Shown: positions 761 to 6,273 of the stretch, one piece after another
Layout of the letters: every line of letters starts with the position of its first letter
How positions within the stretch are numbered: position 1 is the first letter of the stretch
Source of the DNA: Candidatus Jordarchaeales archaeon
GTDB taxonomy: Archaea > Asgardarchaeota > Jordiarchaeia > Jordiarchaeales > Freyrarchaeaceae
Assembly (NCBI GenBank): GCA_038858525.1
Contig: JAWCFL010000003.1
Span: forward strand, 77,591-85,989
Reading direction: 5' to 3'
DNA: 8,399 nucleotides
Position numbers and translations under genes: made by a program
The notes under the pieces: generated by a model
The model's database searches: none
What the model was told of the DNA's origin: nothing
The model's input: only the letters and a program-made list of their open reading frames with translations

Positions 761-883
761 ATCACCTAAGCCGCATGAACACCAAAAGCCCCAAATAAGC
801 ATGGGGGGGAAGCATAAATAACTTTTCTCTACTCCACGATTAACTCCCCGAAGAATAATGAGAAACACCCACTACGACAGATA

Positions 884-900
884 CGAAAAAAATAAATAAA
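884..900 (+). promoter_or_regulatory. Putative BRE/TATA element of the tRNA-Tyr gene
   Basis: CGAAAAAAATAAATAAA lies 26-42 bp upstream of the mature tRNA 5' end (926), the spacing expected for an archaeal promoter with a short leader. Confidence 0.5.
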
Positions 901-945
901 GAGAAGGAGAATAAACCAACTGAGTCCCCCCGTAGCTCAGTTGGT

Positions 946-974
946 TTGGGGCTAAAAACAGAGCCCCACAATAC
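946..974 (+). other. tRNA intron 1, non-canonical position 20/21 (D loop), 29 nt
   Basis: BHB: central helix GUUG(940-943)/CAAU(969-972), bulges GU|U (944-946) and AC|A (973-975), intron stem UGGGGCU/AGCCCCA. The outer helix is the D stem, offset by unpaired A14. Cutting after the 2nd bulge base restores U20-A21 exactly. Confidence 0.9.
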
Positions 975-991
975 AGAGCGGTCGGCTGTAG

Positions 992-1037
992 AAGCGCGCT
1001 TGATAGCGTGGCAGGATCAGCCGCCGCTTGTACAGAC
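992..1037 (+). other. tRNA intron 2, canonical position 37/38, 46 nt
   Basis: BHB: outer helix GUCGG/CCGAC, central helix CUGU(986-989)/ACAG(1032-1035), bulges AG|A (990-992) and AC|A (1036-1038). The inner helix is imperfect next to the bulge (A993-U1031, then AAGCG/CGCUU in a shifted register). Confidence 0.93.
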
Positions 1038-1043
1038 ACCGAC

Positions 1044-1071
1044 ATGTTCCCGGGTCAACCGGATACGGGCA
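1044..1071 (+). other. tRNA intron 3, non-canonical position 43/44, 28 nt
   Basis: Relaxed BHB: central helix ACCG(1038-1041)/CGGG(1066-1069) with 3 WC pairs and a terminal A.G mismatch, bulges AC|A (1042-1044) and CA|U (1070-1072), 5-bp inner helix UGUUC(1045-1049)/GGAUA(1061-1065). The outer helix is weak and depends on context. Confidence 0.65.
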
Positions 1072-1072
1072 T

Positions 1073-1101
1073 TTTTAGGTTTAGGTCAACACCAAGCCTA
1101 C
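1073..1101 (+). other. tRNA intron 4, non-canonical position 44/45, 29 nt
   Basis: hBHBh': outer helix AC(1065-1066)/GU(1103-1104), central helix GGGC(1067-1070)/GCCU(1096-1099), bulges AU|U (1071-1073) and AC|G (1100-1102), inner helix UU(1074-1075)/AA(1094-1095). The 5' strand of the central helix lies inside intron 3. Confidence 0.68.
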
Positions 1102-1116
1102 GGTCCCCGGTTCGAG

Positions 1117-1136
1117 ATTGCTACTTTCAGCGAAAA
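1117..1136 (+). other. tRNA intron 5, non-canonical position 59/60 (T loop), 20 nt
   Basis: Complete hBHBh': outer helix is the T stem, central helix UUCG(1111-1114)/CGAA(1131-1134), bulges AG|A (1115-1117) and AA|U (1135-1137), inner helix UUG(1118-1120)/CAG(1128-1130). Confidence 0.92.
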
Positions 1137-1156
1137 TCCGGGCGGGGGGACACTCA

Positions 1157-1172
1157 TACTTTTTATGTGTTT
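1157..1172 (+). terminator. Possible oligo(T) terminator of the tRNA transcript
   Basis: T5 run at 1160-1164 in a T-rich tract starting about 10 nt after the discriminator base. Confidence 0.4.
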
Positions 1173-3678: not shown

Positions 3679-3838
3679 CCTCTAAACATTAAAATTTCAA
3701 CAATTTGAAAGAACCGAGAAAGTTGCTCCTTTATCTAATTTGATTTTGGCTGTCGGTGGACGTTGCAAAACGTCAAGATATTTTGGGAAAAGATTTATTT
3801 AAAGATCAGCTTGAAGAGATGAGAGGAGAGAGGGAATT

Positions 3839-4144
3839 ATGGAGAGCGAAGAAAAGGGACTTGGAAAATTTACCGAAACCTTGCTTGAATGGACTGGATG
3901 GGGTGGATTAGCAGCTGCGGCCATTACGGTTTTACTTGTCGCAACACTCGGTTCAGTACACCTAGATAATGAAGCCGCAGCCATCATCATAATGTCACTC
4001 TTTCTCGGCATAACAGCGTGGGGAACTGGCAAGTTGATTAAAGAGAGAGAGGAGGAGCGGAGAAAATACTTTAGAATCTGGATTGCATTAGTTTTTCTAG
4101 GAGCGGTTCTACTTATTCTTGCCATACTTTTTGTGCCAACATAA
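3839..4144 (+). CDS. Small hypothetical membrane protein (about 3 TM segments)
   Basis: 101 aa with three hydrophobic stretches and a charged loop KEREEERRK; GAGG/GGAG upstream of the ATG; fills the gap between map and endA. Confidence 0.7.
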   Translation: MESEEKGLGKFTETLLEWTGWGGLAAAAITVLLVATLGSVHLDNEAAAIIIMSLFLGITAWGTGKLIKEREEERRKYFRIWIALVFLGAVLLILAILFVPT

Positions 4145-4217
4145 TGAGGAAAAAGGCAACGTTTAATTCATCACAGAGAGCTACTCGTCTTCCAGAGGAA
4201 GTTTATGGGAAAATTAT

Positions 4218-4793
4218 TCATGGTTTAAACCATGAGAAAATGTAGTACTTGGGTTCTCCTGTGTGTTCGACCGTAGCTATCACAAATTTTTTTCTTACTG
4301 ATGTTGCAAGGCGGCCAGCTCTAACTATGTCTATAGGGCTCAGCTGAGTTCCTAGTGGAACGACGCTGACTATTAGGGGGGCATGGTCTATTCCGGGTCC
4401 ATGCTCATAGACCGAGAAGTCTGCGCCAAACTTTAACCCTGGCCTAACAACGTAGCCCTTTTCCCTTAAATCTTTGTAAACAATGTACTTTGTTTTGAAG
4501 TCTAGGTATGCCTTTTCTGCCCTTTCCTCAAGCTCTTTTTTTGTCACCAAGTGTCCATCGTTCATATCGTATATTTCAATGCGGCCCTTTTCAAGTAAGT
4601 ATAATGCCTCGATGAGTGAGAGTTCCAACGGTTTGTTGAACTGCGGGGTTTTCGGCTTCCGTATTCCTAGAGGCTGCCCGTAGAAGCCTTCACCGTAAAG
4701 TCTGGAGCCTTCTTCGGGATCCCACACTATTACCCTGTTGCCCTCTATGAGCTCAGCTGTCTTTTTTAGTGGAACATTACTATCGGTAGTCAT
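4218..4793 (-). CDS. endA: tRNA splicing endonuclease, catalytic subunit (crenarchaeal alpha-type)
   Basis: 191 aa; LELSLIEALYL, VYKDLREKGYVVRPGLKFGADFSVY, catalytic triad Y129/H137/K168 (VYEHGPGIDHAP ... VRKK), C-terminal FSW. AGGAGGT RBS at 4801-4807. Confidence 0.97.
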   Translation of the reverse strand: MTTDSNVPLKKTAELIEGNRVIVWDPEEGSRLYGEGFYGQPLGIRKPKTPQFNKPLELSLIEALYLLEKGRIEIYDMNDGHLVTKKELEERAEKAYLDFKTKYIVYKDLREKGYVVRPGLKFGADFSVYEHGPGIDHAPLIVSVVPLGTQLSPIDIVRAGRLATSVRKKFVIATVEHTGEPKYYIFSWFKP

Positions 4794-5476: not shown

Positions 5477-5509
5477 TCTGTTTTGTGTCTTCGCACAATA
5501 AACAGCAGC

Positions 5510-5527
5510 TTTTATACCTCTTTTAAA
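5510..5527 (-). promoter_or_regulatory. Putative BRE/TATA promoter for DUF47-endA
   Basis: Minus strand TTTAAAAGAGGTATAAAA; TATAAAA lies about 35 bp upstream of the GTG at 5476. Confidence 0.45.
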
Positions 5528-5869
5528 CTCAATAGTTAATAAAGTTTCTTCAAGGTAACTTGAAATTACTTAGTTTGCTCATAAAAACAACGTCTAGAAA
5601 AAGCATCTTGCTGGGAGGATTAATGAGTTCTGAGCTGTGTGGTTTTGTGGACGTGCAGTTAAAATCATCTATGGGTTTTCATTTCCTAATTTCTCATGAT
5701 TCCATATGATTGTGGAAGTCTTTACTGGTCATAGGTGGAATGGCTTCACACCAAAAGTAACGAGTAACTGAAGAAAAGCCATGTAAAGAAAAATTCCAGT
5801 TTCTCTTTAAATGTTTGTTTTGTTCATTTGTTTTTAATCTTTGGAAGGAACATTGAAAGCCAAAAAGTG

Positions 5870-5882
5870 CGAAAAATTTATT
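5870..5882 (+). promoter_or_regulatory. Putative BRE/TATA promoter for the rpl35ae cluster
   Basis: CGAAAAATTTATT resembles the archaeal BRE+TTTAW consensus and the element upstream of the tRNA; about 70 bp upstream of the ATG. Confidence 0.4.
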
Positions 5883-5953
5883 GGTAGGGCGAGTTTTATC
5901 TTGTTGCCACGTTTAACCTTTCTTGATGAATGGGATCCTTGGAGGGTTCTCTT

Positions 5954-6250
5954 ATGGTAAAGGTCATATCAGAAGGTAAGGTTATTAACTACGTGTTGAG
6001 CAAAAACCTGCAACACTCAAAGAATATCGTGCTCCGTTTTAACGGGGTCAAATCCGAGGGGGAAGCAGCAAAGCTCATTGGGCGAACAGTTATTTGGGTT
6101 AGCCGTAAAGGAAGGGAGTTAAGAGGAAAAATAGTGTCTTGTCATGGAAGAAGTGGAGCTGTTAGAGCGATTTTCAGGAAGGGGCTTCCAGGGGAAGCGC
6201 TGGGAACTTCTGTCAGGCTTGCTGAGCCTCTCATAATTCCTGAAGGATAA
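5954..6250 (+). CDS. rpl35ae: 50S ribosomal protein L35Ae (eL33)
   Basis: EAAKLIGRTVIW, GKIVSCHGRSGAVRAIFRKGLPGEALG match the archaeal L35Ae pattern. ATG at 5954 follows GGAGGGT (5941-5947), preferred over ATG at 5930. Confidence 0.93.
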   Translation: MVKVISEGKVINYVLSKNLQHSKNIVLRFNGVKSEGEAAKLIGRTVIWVSRKGRELRGKIVSCHGRSGAVRAIFRKGLPGEALGTSVRLAEPLIIPEG

Positions 6251-6273
6251 AAAAGAAGCTGGAAGGCGTTAAG

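What the first reader, a model, noticed from the sequence alone, without database searches (positions are those of the whole stretch)
926..1150. tRNA-Tyr gene carrying five introns (152 of 225 nt are intronic)
Seen in sequence: the tRNA-Tyr(GUA) cloverleaf is split into six exons. Each of the five inserts has a BHB-type motif whose cut sites (after the 2nd bulge base) restore an exact 73-nt tRNA, with introns in the D loop, anticodon loop, variable region (two) and T loop. Established: archaeal tRNA introns are removed at BHB motifs, and multi-intron tRNAs are best known from Thermoproteales. From memory the reported maximum is three per gene, which needs a literature check. Even the conservative reading (1044-1101 region as one intron) gives four. 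Inference: this may be among the most fragmented cis-spliced tRNA genes, and standard annotation would probably miss or mis-split it.
Basis: partly seen in the sequence, partly recalled or inferred. Interest (0 to 1): 0.92.

Follow-up and report, generated by a model that had tools for sequence, protein, structure and literature searches.

The report
Five-intron tyrosine tRNA gene, Asgard archaeon
This is a real and apparently the only tyrosine tRNA gene of a Jordarchaeia (Asgard) archaeon, cut into six pieces by short protein-spliced introns, one piece being a single base; such crowding is already reported for this lineage, so it is an extreme example, not a new kind of thing.

Summary
Observation confirmed. 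Window 926-1150 (+) is a tRNA-Tyr(GUA) gene in which 152 of 225 nt are intervening sequence. Removing 946-974, 992-1037, 1044-1071, 1073-1101 and 1117-1136 gives a 73-nt cloverleaf that ARAGORN calls tRNA-Tyr. ARAGORN and Rfam both miss the unspliced gene.

Orthologues give motif-free support. A sister genus has only the 37/38 intron and the same mature sequence, including variable loop UGGUC. Three same-genus sequences have the anticodon-loop and variable-region inserts but no D-loop or T-loop insert.

Four interrupted sites are secure. The fifth intron depends on reading the 58-nt variable-region block as two abutting introns around a one-base exon (U44, base 1072). I put that at about 0.6. 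It implies a fixed order, 44/45 before 43/44.

The novelty claim does not hold. The genome is Jordarchaeia, and an October 2026 preprint reports about 2 intervening sequences per tRNA gene in this family and up to five in one gene across its three focal families. I verified a five-intron tRNA-Arg in this same genome. This scan has also noted five- and six-intron Asgard tRNA genes on other DNA. Verdict: new member of a known kind.

The parts
883..898 (+). Putative archaeal promoter (BRE-like CGAAA followed by an A/T-rich TATA-like AAATAAATAA), about 30-40 nt upstream of the mature 5' end
   Evidence: Read directly. The same motif lies upstream of the orthologues in G001, G002, L047 and G004. 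Function is inferred, not tested.
926..945 (+). Exon 1, tRNA nt 1-20: acceptor 5' strand CCCCCCG, U8 A9, D stem GCUC, D loop up to U20
   Evidence: Identical to the orthologues except for an extra U17.
946..974 (+). Intron 1 (29 nt, position 20/21, D loop). Central helix GUUG/CAAU, bulges GU|U and AC|A, 7-bp inner helix. The outer helix is the D stem with A14 bulged.
   Evidence: The MFE fold reproduces this BHB exactly. Shuffle P <1e-5. Absent from G001, G002, L047 and G004.
975..991 (+). Exon 2, nt 21-37: A21, D stem 3' strand, G26, anticodon stem 5' strand GUCGG, loop CU-GUA-G37
992..1037 (+). Intron 2 (46 nt, canonical 37/38). Central helix CUGU/ACAG, bulges AG|A and AC|A. The outer helix is the anticodon stem.
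   Evidence: Present in all five orthologues.
1038..1043 (+). Exon 3, nt 38-43: A38 and anticodon stem 3' strand CCGAC
   Evidence: The 27-43 pair is G-C here and C-G in all four relatives, a compensatory double change.
1044..1071 (+). Intron 3 (28 nt, 43/44), relaxed motif. Central helix ACCG/CGGG (3 pairs plus A.G), bulges AC|A and CA|U, inner hairpin of at least 5 bp, no outer helix. Its CGGG overlaps the helix of intron 4, and its ACCG is part of the anticodon arm.
   Evidence: Shuffle P 5.8e-4. The layout is kept in G001, G002 and L047. The conformer is 4.2 kcal/mol above the cloverleaf.
1072..1072 (+). Exon 4: a single base, U44, under the two-intron reading
   Evidence: This is the base left between the cut of bulge CA|U (intron 3) and bulge AU|U (intron 4). 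The sister-genus gene without these introns has U at position 44 (variable loop UGGUC). The T is conserved in all four genus sequences.
1073..1101 (+). Intron 4 (29 nt, 44/45), strict motif. Outer helix AC/GU, central helix GGGC/GCCU, bulges AU|U and AC|G. The 5' half of its motif (1065-1071) is the 3' end of intron 3.
   Evidence: Strict scan hit. Kept in four sequences with a variable interior of 22-37 nt and with C->U and A->G changes that keep pairing as G.U. Shuffle P 0.004.
1102..1116 (+). Exon 5, nt 45-59: GGUC of the variable loop, T stem 5' strand CCCGG, T loop UUCGAG
1117..1136 (+). Intron 5 (20 nt, 59/60, T loop), strict motif. The outer helix is the 5-bp T stem; central helix UUCG/CGAA, bulges AG|A and AA|U, 3-bp inner helix.
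   Evidence: Strict scan hit. Shuffle P 8e-4. Absent from G001, G002, L047 and G004.
1137..1150 (+). Exon 6, nt 60-73: U60, T stem 3' strand, acceptor 3' strand CGGGGGG, discriminator A73. No CCA is encoded.
1160..1164 (+). T5 run, a likely transcription stop
   Evidence: Read. T runs also follow the orthologues. Inferred.
4218..4793 (-). Gene for the catalytic (alpha-type) subunit of the tRNA-splicing endonuclease EndA, 191 aa, 3 kb from the tRNA gene. It is the enzyme expected to cut these introns, not part of the tRNA gene.
   Evidence: PF02778 plus PF01974, E 1e-31. The best solved relatives are chain B of the two-chain entries 3p1z, 3ajv and 2zyz, and 2cv8. That these are the crenarchaeal alpha subunits of (alpha-beta)2 enzymes is from my memory. 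A second paralogue lies on contig C43.

Best explanation
The locus is the functional, single-copy tRNA-Tyr(GUA) gene of a Jordarchaeia (Asgard) archaeon. It is transcribed from an upstream A/T-rich promoter as a precursor of about 225 nt plus leader and trailer. The archaeal splicing endonuclease EndA cuts after the second base of each 3-nt bulge of five bulge-helix-bulge motifs. The genome has two EndA paralogues, one of them in this window. The RtcB ligase then joins the exons, and CCA is added after transcription. The introns lie at 20/21 (D loop), 37/38, 43/44, 44/45 and 59/60 (T loop). The 37/38 intron is shared with a sister genus, the 43/44 + 44/45 pair is shared by the genus, and the D-loop and T-loop introns were gained only in this species' lineage. 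The two variable-region introns abut around a one-base exon (U44) and depend on each other. The motif of the 44/45 intron is built from the 3' end of the 43/44 intron, and while it exists it sequesters the GGG that the 43/44 motif needs. So 44/45 must be removed first, and only then can 43/44 fold, which requires opening the anticodon stem, and be removed. Shown here: gene identity, insert borders, motifs, conservation, and presence of the enzymes. Inferred: transcription, actual splicing, the order of splicing, and survival of the one-base exon.
For: 1. The spliced 73-mer is called tRNA-Tyr(gta) by ARAGORN. It has C1-G72, A73, U8, A14, G18G19, U33 and a T loop with A58.
2. It differs from the mature sister-genus tRNA (G004, one intron only) by 4 substitutions and one extra U17. 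Two of the substitutions are a compensatory swap of pair 27-43.
3. The D-loop and T-loop inserts are absent from four relatives. The variable-region insert is absent from G004, whose loop is UGGUC, exactly what the two-intron reading yields.
4. All five motifs fall on the required borders, with shuffle frequencies from <1e-5 to 0.017.
5. Both variable-region motifs are kept in four genus-level sequences while the intron interiors diverge in sequence and length. Changes in the helices keep pairing.
6. No BHB links a 5' site at 1043-1045 to the 3' site at 1101/1102.
7. After in-silico removal of intron 3, no BHB remains for intron 4. This is my reading of the sequence.
8. No second tRNA-Tyr-like locus was found. 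Exon BLAST hits only this locus. The spliced-alignment DP scores 110 here and 50 for the best independent locus.
9. An alpha-type EndA plus a second paralogue, and RtcB, are present in the genome.
10. The lineage is published as intron-crowded (10.64898/2026.10.13.758758; PMC11291895).
Against: Intron 3's motif is relaxed: the central helix has 3 pairs plus A.G, there is no outer helix, and it needs three anticodon-stem pairs to open. In the I4-spliced intermediate that conformer is 4.2 kcal/mol less stable than the cloverleaf. I found no report of a one-base exon, and it would be lost if all four cuts preceded ligation. The all-BHB fold of the precursor (-82.8 kcal/mol) is well above the MFE (-99.8), which pairs GGGC with GUCC and draws a different inner hairpin for intron 4. 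The inner helix of intron 4 is missing in G001 and G002. The four sequences carrying the pair are close kin, so conservation of the helices is weak evidence, with no fully compensatory pair in either central helix. The assembly is 92.7% complete, so a second tRNA-Tyr gene cannot be excluded.
Confidence: 0.6

Rival explanations
1. Same functional gene, but with four introns. The whole variable-region block is removed as one unit of 57 or 58 nt, using the 5' bulge at 43/44 (or 44/45) and the 3' bulge at 1101/1102. The variable loop would be GGUC or AGGUC, and base 1072 would be intronic.
For: A motif-free comparison with G004 sees a single insert here. It avoids a one-base exon and the weak 3' side of intron 3's motif. 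A1044 is conserved in all four genus sequences. A44 occurs in other archaeal tRNA-Tyr genes fetched here, for example AGGUC in L020.
Against: No helix connects the two outer cut sites, so no single BHB exists for this excision. The strict, conserved motif of intron 4 places a cut at 1072/1073. Only the two-step reading reproduces the sister genus's UGGUC. The hairpin plus CGGG at the exact borders is unlikely by chance (5.8e-4).
Confidence: 0.27
2. Only intron 4 is removed from the variable region. Bases 1044-1072 stay in the mature tRNA as a long, hairpin-bearing variable arm, making a class II-like tRNA-Tyr as in bacteria.
For: 1044-1071 contains a stable, conserved hairpin (-7 to -12 kcal/mol). 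The cloverleaf with this hairpin is the more stable conformer of the intermediate.
Against: The variable region would be 33 nt with an 11-nt 3' tail, beyond known class II arms (my knowledge). Every other archaeal tRNA-Tyr fetched here has a variable loop of about 5 nt, including the sister genus with otherwise near-identical exons. The flanks of the hairpin form a cut-site geometry that exactly restores 5 nt.
Confidence: 0.05
3. A decaying pseudogene: the inserts are not all spliced, and tyrosine decoding relies on a gene missing from the assembly.
For: The assembly is 92.7% complete in 63 contigs. Two inserts are unique to this genome. No expression data exist.
Against: All four stems are intact, with a compensatory 27-43 swap. 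All five inserts carry cut-site motifs at exact borders. The promoter-like motif and T run are kept. No other tRNA-Tyr-like locus was found. Other essential tRNAs in the genome are just as fragmented.
Confidence: 0.03

Closest known systems
[quoted passage not shown] 2024, PMC11291895; Goswami et al. 2026 preprint, 10.64898/2026.10.13.758758)
   Same: Same lineage: G001, in the same genus, is 'Candidatus Jordarchaeia archaeon QC4'. [quoted passage not shown] The two introns unique to this genome fit that last pattern.
   Different: In what I read of those papers I found no mention of two introns one base apart, of a one-base exon, or of one intron's motif being built from another intron. A search of the preprint for 'nested' and 'adjacent' returned nothing. 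By the preprint's motif-free count, this gene would score four intervening sequences, not five.
Multi-intron tRNA genes of Thermoproteales (Pyrobaculum, Thermofilum, Caldivirga; Sugahara 2007/2008, Fujishima 2010, as reviewed in PMC4090602)
   Same: Cis-spliced BHB introns at D-loop, anticodon-loop, variable-region and T-loop positions. Relaxed motifs (hBH, HBh') are tolerated by a heteromeric EndA. The EndA in this window is most similar to the crenarchaeal alpha subunits.
   Different: Up to three introns per gene are described there, against four sites and five introns here. Thermoproteales introns show paralogous copies interpreted as transposition. The five introns here have no detectable paralogue in this genome.
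Multiple- and ectopic-intron nuclear tRNA genes of the red alga Cyanidioschyzon merolae and of nucleomorphs (PMC3728597, PMC4090602)
   Same: Several short introns per tRNA gene at D, anticodon and T positions, with BHB-like junctions.
   Different: These are eukaryotic, have up to three introns, and some genes are also permuted. There is no evolutionary link to this locus.
Split and tri-split tRNA genes (Nanoarchaeum equitans, Caldivirga maquilingensis; PMC3218864, PMC4390854)
   Same: tRNA pieces are joined at BHB motifs by EndA and a ligase.
   Different: Those pieces are transcribed from separate loci and joined in trans. Here all six exons are colinear within 225 nt.

Membership tests
Archaeal class I tRNA-Tyr | Cloverleaf with 7/4/5/5-bp stems and anticodon GUA after removal of intervening sequence | tested here: met
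   ARAGORN on the spliced 73-mer returns tRNA-Tyr (gta). All stems are Watson-Crick paired.
Archaeal class I tRNA-Tyr | Archaeal/eukaryal tyrosine identity set: C1-G72 pair, A73 discriminator, G34 (from my knowledge of M. jannaschii TyrRS recognition) | tested here: met
   C926 pairs with G1149, A1150 is the discriminator, and the anticodon GUA is at 988-990.
Archaeal class I tRNA-Tyr | Short (4-5 nt) variable loop | tested here: inconclusive
   The loop is 5 nt (UGGUC) only if both 1044-1071 and 1073-1101 are removed. This matches the sister genus, but no RNA data exist.
Archaeal class I tRNA-Tyr | Orthology to recognised tRNA-Tyr genes | tested here: met
   The exons are near-identical to loci that Rfam RF00005 scores at 58.4 bits (G004), 46.5 bits (G002) and 44.9 bits (G001). 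The downstream DUF1512 gene is conserved in G001 and G002.
EndA-spliced (BHB) archaeal introns | 4-bp central helix flanked by two 3-nt bulges on opposite strands, with cuts that restore the mature RNA | tested here: met
   I1, I2, I4 and I5 have 4/4 pairs at the exact borders. I3 has 3/4 plus A.G.
EndA-spliced (BHB) archaeal introns | Flanking outer (h) and inner (h') helices, i.e. the strict hBHBh' form | tested here: inconclusive
   I4 and I5 are strict. I1 has h offset by bulged A14. I2 has h' offset by 2 nt. I3 has no h. Such relaxed forms are accepted by heteromeric EndA according to PMC4090602 and PMC5829648.
EndA-spliced (BHB) archaeal introns | A splicing endonuclease able to handle non-canonical sites, and an RtcB-type ligase, encoded by the organism | tested here: met
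   There are two PF01974 genes. One is alpha-type and closest to crenarchaeal alpha subunits. RtcB matches at 601 bits. Subunit composition and specificity were not tested.
EndA-spliced (BHB) archaeal introns | Excision shown at the RNA level (spliced junctions, circular introns) | not testable with these tools
tRNA genes with five or more introns | Five separately excised intervening sequences in one gene | tested here: inconclusive
   Four insertion sites are certain from comparison with relatives. The fifth rests on splitting the 58-nt block into two motifs.

The most novel reading that the evidence does not exclude
The variable region holds a 'piggy-back' intron pair kept across the genus. 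The 44/45 intron is recognisable only through a bulge-helix-bulge whose 5' half is the 3' end of the neighbouring 43/44 intron, leaving a one-base exon (U44). The two motifs are mutually exclusive, so splicing has an obligatory order enforced by RNA structure. This would be the smallest exon described for a protein-spliced RNA. It would also be a direct example of introns being gained next to introns because an existing intron supplies the recognition helix.
Probability: 0.5. Interest if true: 0.6.

Novelty: new member of a known kind. Interest (0 to 1): 0.42.

Why it matters
This locus is a clean, comparison-backed example of how far tRNA gene fragmentation goes in Jordarchaeia. Two thirds of an essential single-copy gene is intron, and two of the introns were gained since the species split from its congeners. 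That makes it useful for dating and studying intron gain.

It also shows a practical annotation failure. The Rfam tRNA model scores the orthologues at 58, 46 and 45 bits as inserts accumulate, and gives nothing for this gene. A standard pipeline would therefore report the organism as lacking tRNA-Tyr.

If the one-base exon and the enforced splicing order are real, they would show that the splicing endonuclease and ligase can handle abutting sites. They would also show that an existing intron can supply the landing site and recognition helix for the next one, which bears on the open question of how these introns spread.

Tried and rejected
1. ARAGORN on the window found 0 tRNAs. Rfam found no tRNA hit at gathering threshold over the whole window, nor at E<=10 over 850-1250; the only hits were two chance matches.
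3. I rejected a single-intron reading of 1044/1045-1101 as the first choice because no BHB joins those sites.
4. I considered other registers for the 43/44 motif (H = CCGA/ACGG and others). They leave 7-nt variable loops, so I rejected them (and hand analysis of G002).
5. I considered a retained long variable arm and rejected it as the first choice (33 nt; relatives have 5 nt).
6. I looked for intron paralogues, as in Thermoproteales-style transposition. blastn-short of each intron against the genome gave only chance-level hits of 16 nt or less.
7. I looked for a second tRNA-Tyr gene by exon BLAST and by a spliced-alignment DP of my own. None scored above background. The ARAGORN 'tRNA-Tyr(ata)' with a 320-nt intron on C11 is probably spurious (I did not inspect that locus).
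8. I did not carry out a genome-wide census of introns per tRNA gene. Close relatives are equally fragmented (7-12 RF00005 hits each), so no compact reference set was available. Only tRNA-Arg(GCG) and tRNA-Trp were verified individually.
9. The gaps at 3679-4217 and 5477-6273 were read for further hidden tRNA genes; none was seen.
10. The genome contigs and metagenome-contig scans returned only one extra genus-level orthologue, L047. G003 gave no match (83% complete).

Full report
**The observation**

Window 926-1150 (+) begins with CCCCCCG and ends with CGGGGGG-A. Between these lie all the parts of a tRNA-Tyr(GUA) cloverleaf, in order, separated by five inserts.
- Removing 946-974 (29 nt), 992-1037 (46), 1044-1071 (28), 1073-1101 (29) and 1117-1136 (20) leaves 73 nt. 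ARAGORN calls this tRNA-Tyr(gta).
- The unspliced locus is invisible to ARAGORN. The Rfam library also misses it, both at gathering thresholds and at E<=10.
- The only ORF over it (946-1197, 83 aa) overlaps the tRNA gene and is probably a chance frame.

**Which organism**

The window is G000:C3:77591-85989, in a 2.09-Mb assembly of 63 contigs that is 92.7% complete.
- The same-genus genome G001 is GenBank JAHAWR01, 'Candidatus Jordarchaeia archaeon isolate QC4'.
- The relatives list has the size pattern expected for Jordiarchaeia and Atabeyarchaeia within Asgard archaea.
- In G000, ARAGORN with introns allowed finds 11 tRNAs, some of them doubtful. RF00005 finds 5.
- Relatives give 7-12 RF00005 hits each. 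Nearly the whole tRNA set of this group is therefore hidden by interruptions.

**Motif-free evidence from orthologues**

I fetched the orthologous gene from four sources: G001 and G002 (same genus), a JGI metagenome contig (L047), and G004. G004 is in the same family but another genus, and is labelled 'Thermoproteota archaeon S9B3_HD70' in GenBank.
- G004 has only the 37/38 intron. Its mature sequence differs from the 73-mer predicted here by four substitutions and one extra U17. Two of the substitutions swap pair 27-43 from C-G to G-C.
- G004's variable loop is UGGUC.
- G001, G002 and L047 have uninterrupted D arms and T arms, but they carry the anticodon-loop intron and an insert in the variable region.
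- Hence the D-loop and T-loop inserts are gains specific to this species' lineage. The variable-region insert arose in the genus. The borders of all inserts are fixed independently of any splicing motif.
- The RF00005 score falls as inserts accumulate: 58.4 bits (G004), 46.5 and 44.9 bits (G002, G001), and no hit for G000.

**The splicing motifs**

I used the standard geometry: a 4-bp central helix H, a 3-nt bulge on each strand, and a cut after the second bulge base. The 37/38 intron of this gene calibrates the rule.

| Intron | Position | Central helix | Bulges | Flanking helices |
|---|---|---|---|---|
| I1 | 20/21 | GUUG/CAAU | GU\|U, AC\|A | 7-bp inner helix; D stem as outer helix with A14 bulged |
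| I2 | 37/38 | CUGU/ACAG | AG\|A, AC\|A | anticodon stem as outer helix |
| I3 | 43/44 | ACCG/CGGG (3 pairs + A.G) | AC\|A, CA\|U | inner hairpin of at least 5 bp; no outer helix |
| I4 | 44/45 | GGGC/GCCU | AU\|U, AC\|G | 2-bp outer and 2-bp inner helices |
| I5 | 59/60 | UUCG/CGAA | AG\|A, AA\|U | T stem as outer helix |

- The MFE fold of the whole precursor draws the I1 motif exactly.
- I4 and I5 are strict hBHBh' hits in my scan.
- I3's motif is relaxed.
- Shuffling each intron 100,000 times gave motifs at least as good at the same borders at <1e-5, 0.017, 5.8e-4, 0.004 and 8e-4 for I1 to I5.

**Four introns or five**

This is the only real uncertainty.
- The strict I4 motif puts a cut at 1072/1073. 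That leaves 1044-1072 attached to exon 3.
- The only excision that then gives a normal 5-nt loop, and the sister genus's UGGUC, is 1044-1071. This makes base 1072 a one-base exon.
- No helix joins a 5' site at 1043-1045 to the 3' site at 1101/1102, so a single BHB for the whole block does not exist.
- Both motifs are kept in all four genus-level sequences. Meanwhile I4 varies from 22 to 37 nt and I3 from 26 to 28 nt. Helix changes such as C->U in H and A->G in h keep pairing as G.U.

There are four counter-arguments.
- I3's motif needs three anticodon-stem pairs to open. It is 4.2 kcal/mol less stable than the cloverleaf in the intermediate.
- Its 3' bulge has no outer helix.
- The four sequences are close kin and show no fully compensatory pair in the central helices.
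- I found no precedent for a one-base exon.

I give about 0.6 to two excisions, about 0.27 to one, and small odds to a retained arm or a pseudogene.

**How it would work**

The 5' half of I4's motif (AC-GGGC-A) is the 3' end of I3. I3's own H strand (CGGG) overlaps it by three G's.
- The two motifs therefore cannot coexist. While I4 is present, its helix, or the alternative GGGC/GUCC helix of the MFE, holds those G's.
- If I3 were removed first, I4 would lose its central helix and have no motif. This is my reading of the sequence.
- The inferred order is I4 first, then ligation of U1072 to G1102, then I3.
- The other three introns look independent of this order.

The enzymes are present.
- An alpha-type EndA (191 aa; PF02778 + PF01974) is encoded in this very window at 4218-4793 (-). 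Its best solved relatives are chain B of the two-chain entries 3p1z, 3ajv and 2zyz, and 2cv8. That these are the crenarchaeal alpha subunits of (alpha-beta)2 enzymes is from my memory.
- A second paralogue lies on C43.
- RtcB lies on C1.
- Only the heteromeric and epsilon-type enzymes are reported to cut non-canonical introns (PMC5829648).
- A conserved BRE/TATA-like motif lies about 30-40 nt upstream, and a T5 run lies 10 nt downstream.

**Is it the only tRNA-Tyr gene?**

Exon BLAST finds the pieces only here. A spliced-alignment DP of the 73-mer against both strands of the genome scores 110 at this locus. The next independent locus scores 50, which is background. Within a 92.7%-complete assembly, it is the only one.

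**Novelty**

- For Asgard archaea, PMC11291895 reports 92-95% of tRNA genes with introns and more than half with several.
- The preprint 10.64898/2026.10.13.758758 (15 Oct 2026) names Jordiarchaeaceae as one of three focal families. It reports about 2 intervening sequences per gene, up to five in a single gene, many introns missed by tRNAscan-SE, and many terminal-branch gains.
- In this same genome I verified a tRNA-Arg(GCG) at C4:38169-38337 whose five introns at five separate sites splice to an ARAGORN-valid 75-mer.
- I also verified a tRNA-Trp at C5:47059 with three excised regions. Both were leads from earlier notes of this scan.
- The scan has also reported five- and six-intron Asgard tRNA genes on other DNA. 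I did not check those.
- So the gene is an extreme but expected member of a known kind. What I did not find described is the abutting, interdependent intron pair with a one-base exon.

**Limits**

tRNAscan-SE and SPLITSX were not available. No genome-wide census was done. My BHB scan and DP are home-made scripts with simple scoring.

Noticed in passing
window 4218-4793 (-); second copy at L050:1189-1785 (+) = G000:C43: The catalytic (alpha-type) tRNA-splicing endonuclease gene lies 3 kb from the five-intron tRNA gene. A second, more M. jannaschii/M. kandleri-like paralogue of 198 aa is on contig C43. Two paralogues suggest a heteromeric enzyme.
   Followed up: partly
G000:C4:38169-38337 (+): A tRNA-Arg(GCG) gene has five introns at five separate sites (lengths 14, 17, 16, 28, 19 nt; exons 22, 9, 8, 13, 8, 15 nt). 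The spliced 75-mer is called tRNA-Arg(gcg) by ARAGORN.
   Followed up: yes
G000:C5:47059-47257 (+): A tRNA-Trp(CCA) gene with three excised regions (23, 82, 20 nt) splices to an ARAGORN-valid 74-mer. The 82-nt anticodon-loop intron contains ATGATGA and CTGA, which look like box C/D motifs, as in the known tRNA-Trp intron guide RNA of Euryarchaeota.
   Followed up: partly
whole genome G000 and relatives G001-G004, G006: Standard detectors see only a small part of the tRNA set: 5 RF00005 hits and 11 ARAGORN calls in G000, and 7-12 RF00005 hits in each relative. For the tRNA-Tyr orthologues the RF00005 score drops from 58 bits to 46/45 bits to no hit as inserts are added.
   Followed up: partly
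L034 / L039 (GenBank JAPDJY010000057, 'Thermoproteota archaeon isolate S9B3_HD70'): This MAG is labelled Thermoproteota in GenBank, but the genome tool places it in the same family as the window's Jordarchaeia genome. Its tRNA-Tyr exons are nearly identical to those here. The GenBank label is probably wrong or outdated.
   Followed up: no
window 981-985 with 1039-1043, compared with L002, L003, L047 and L039: Anticodon-stem pair 27-43 is G-C in this genome and C-G in all four relatives. This is a compensatory double change across two exons separated by the 46-nt intron. T-loop positions 57 and 59 (A to G) and an extra U17 also differ, all three within or next to the exon halves of the two newly gained intron motifs.
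   Followed up: partly
same genome, other contigs (earlier notes e1-5424989, e1-5425084, e1-5425201): Earlier first-reader notes claim many tRNA-type BHB introns inside protein-coding genes of this genome (cbf5, EF-2, queE, infB and others). I did not examine them. If true, they would be more unusual than the tRNA introns.
   Followed up: no
window 5930-6250 (+): A small ORF (106 aa) whose translation looks like ribosomal protein L35Ae, sitting in an otherwise unannotated gap. No hidden tRNA gene was seen in the gaps 3679-4217 or 5477-6273.
   Followed up: no
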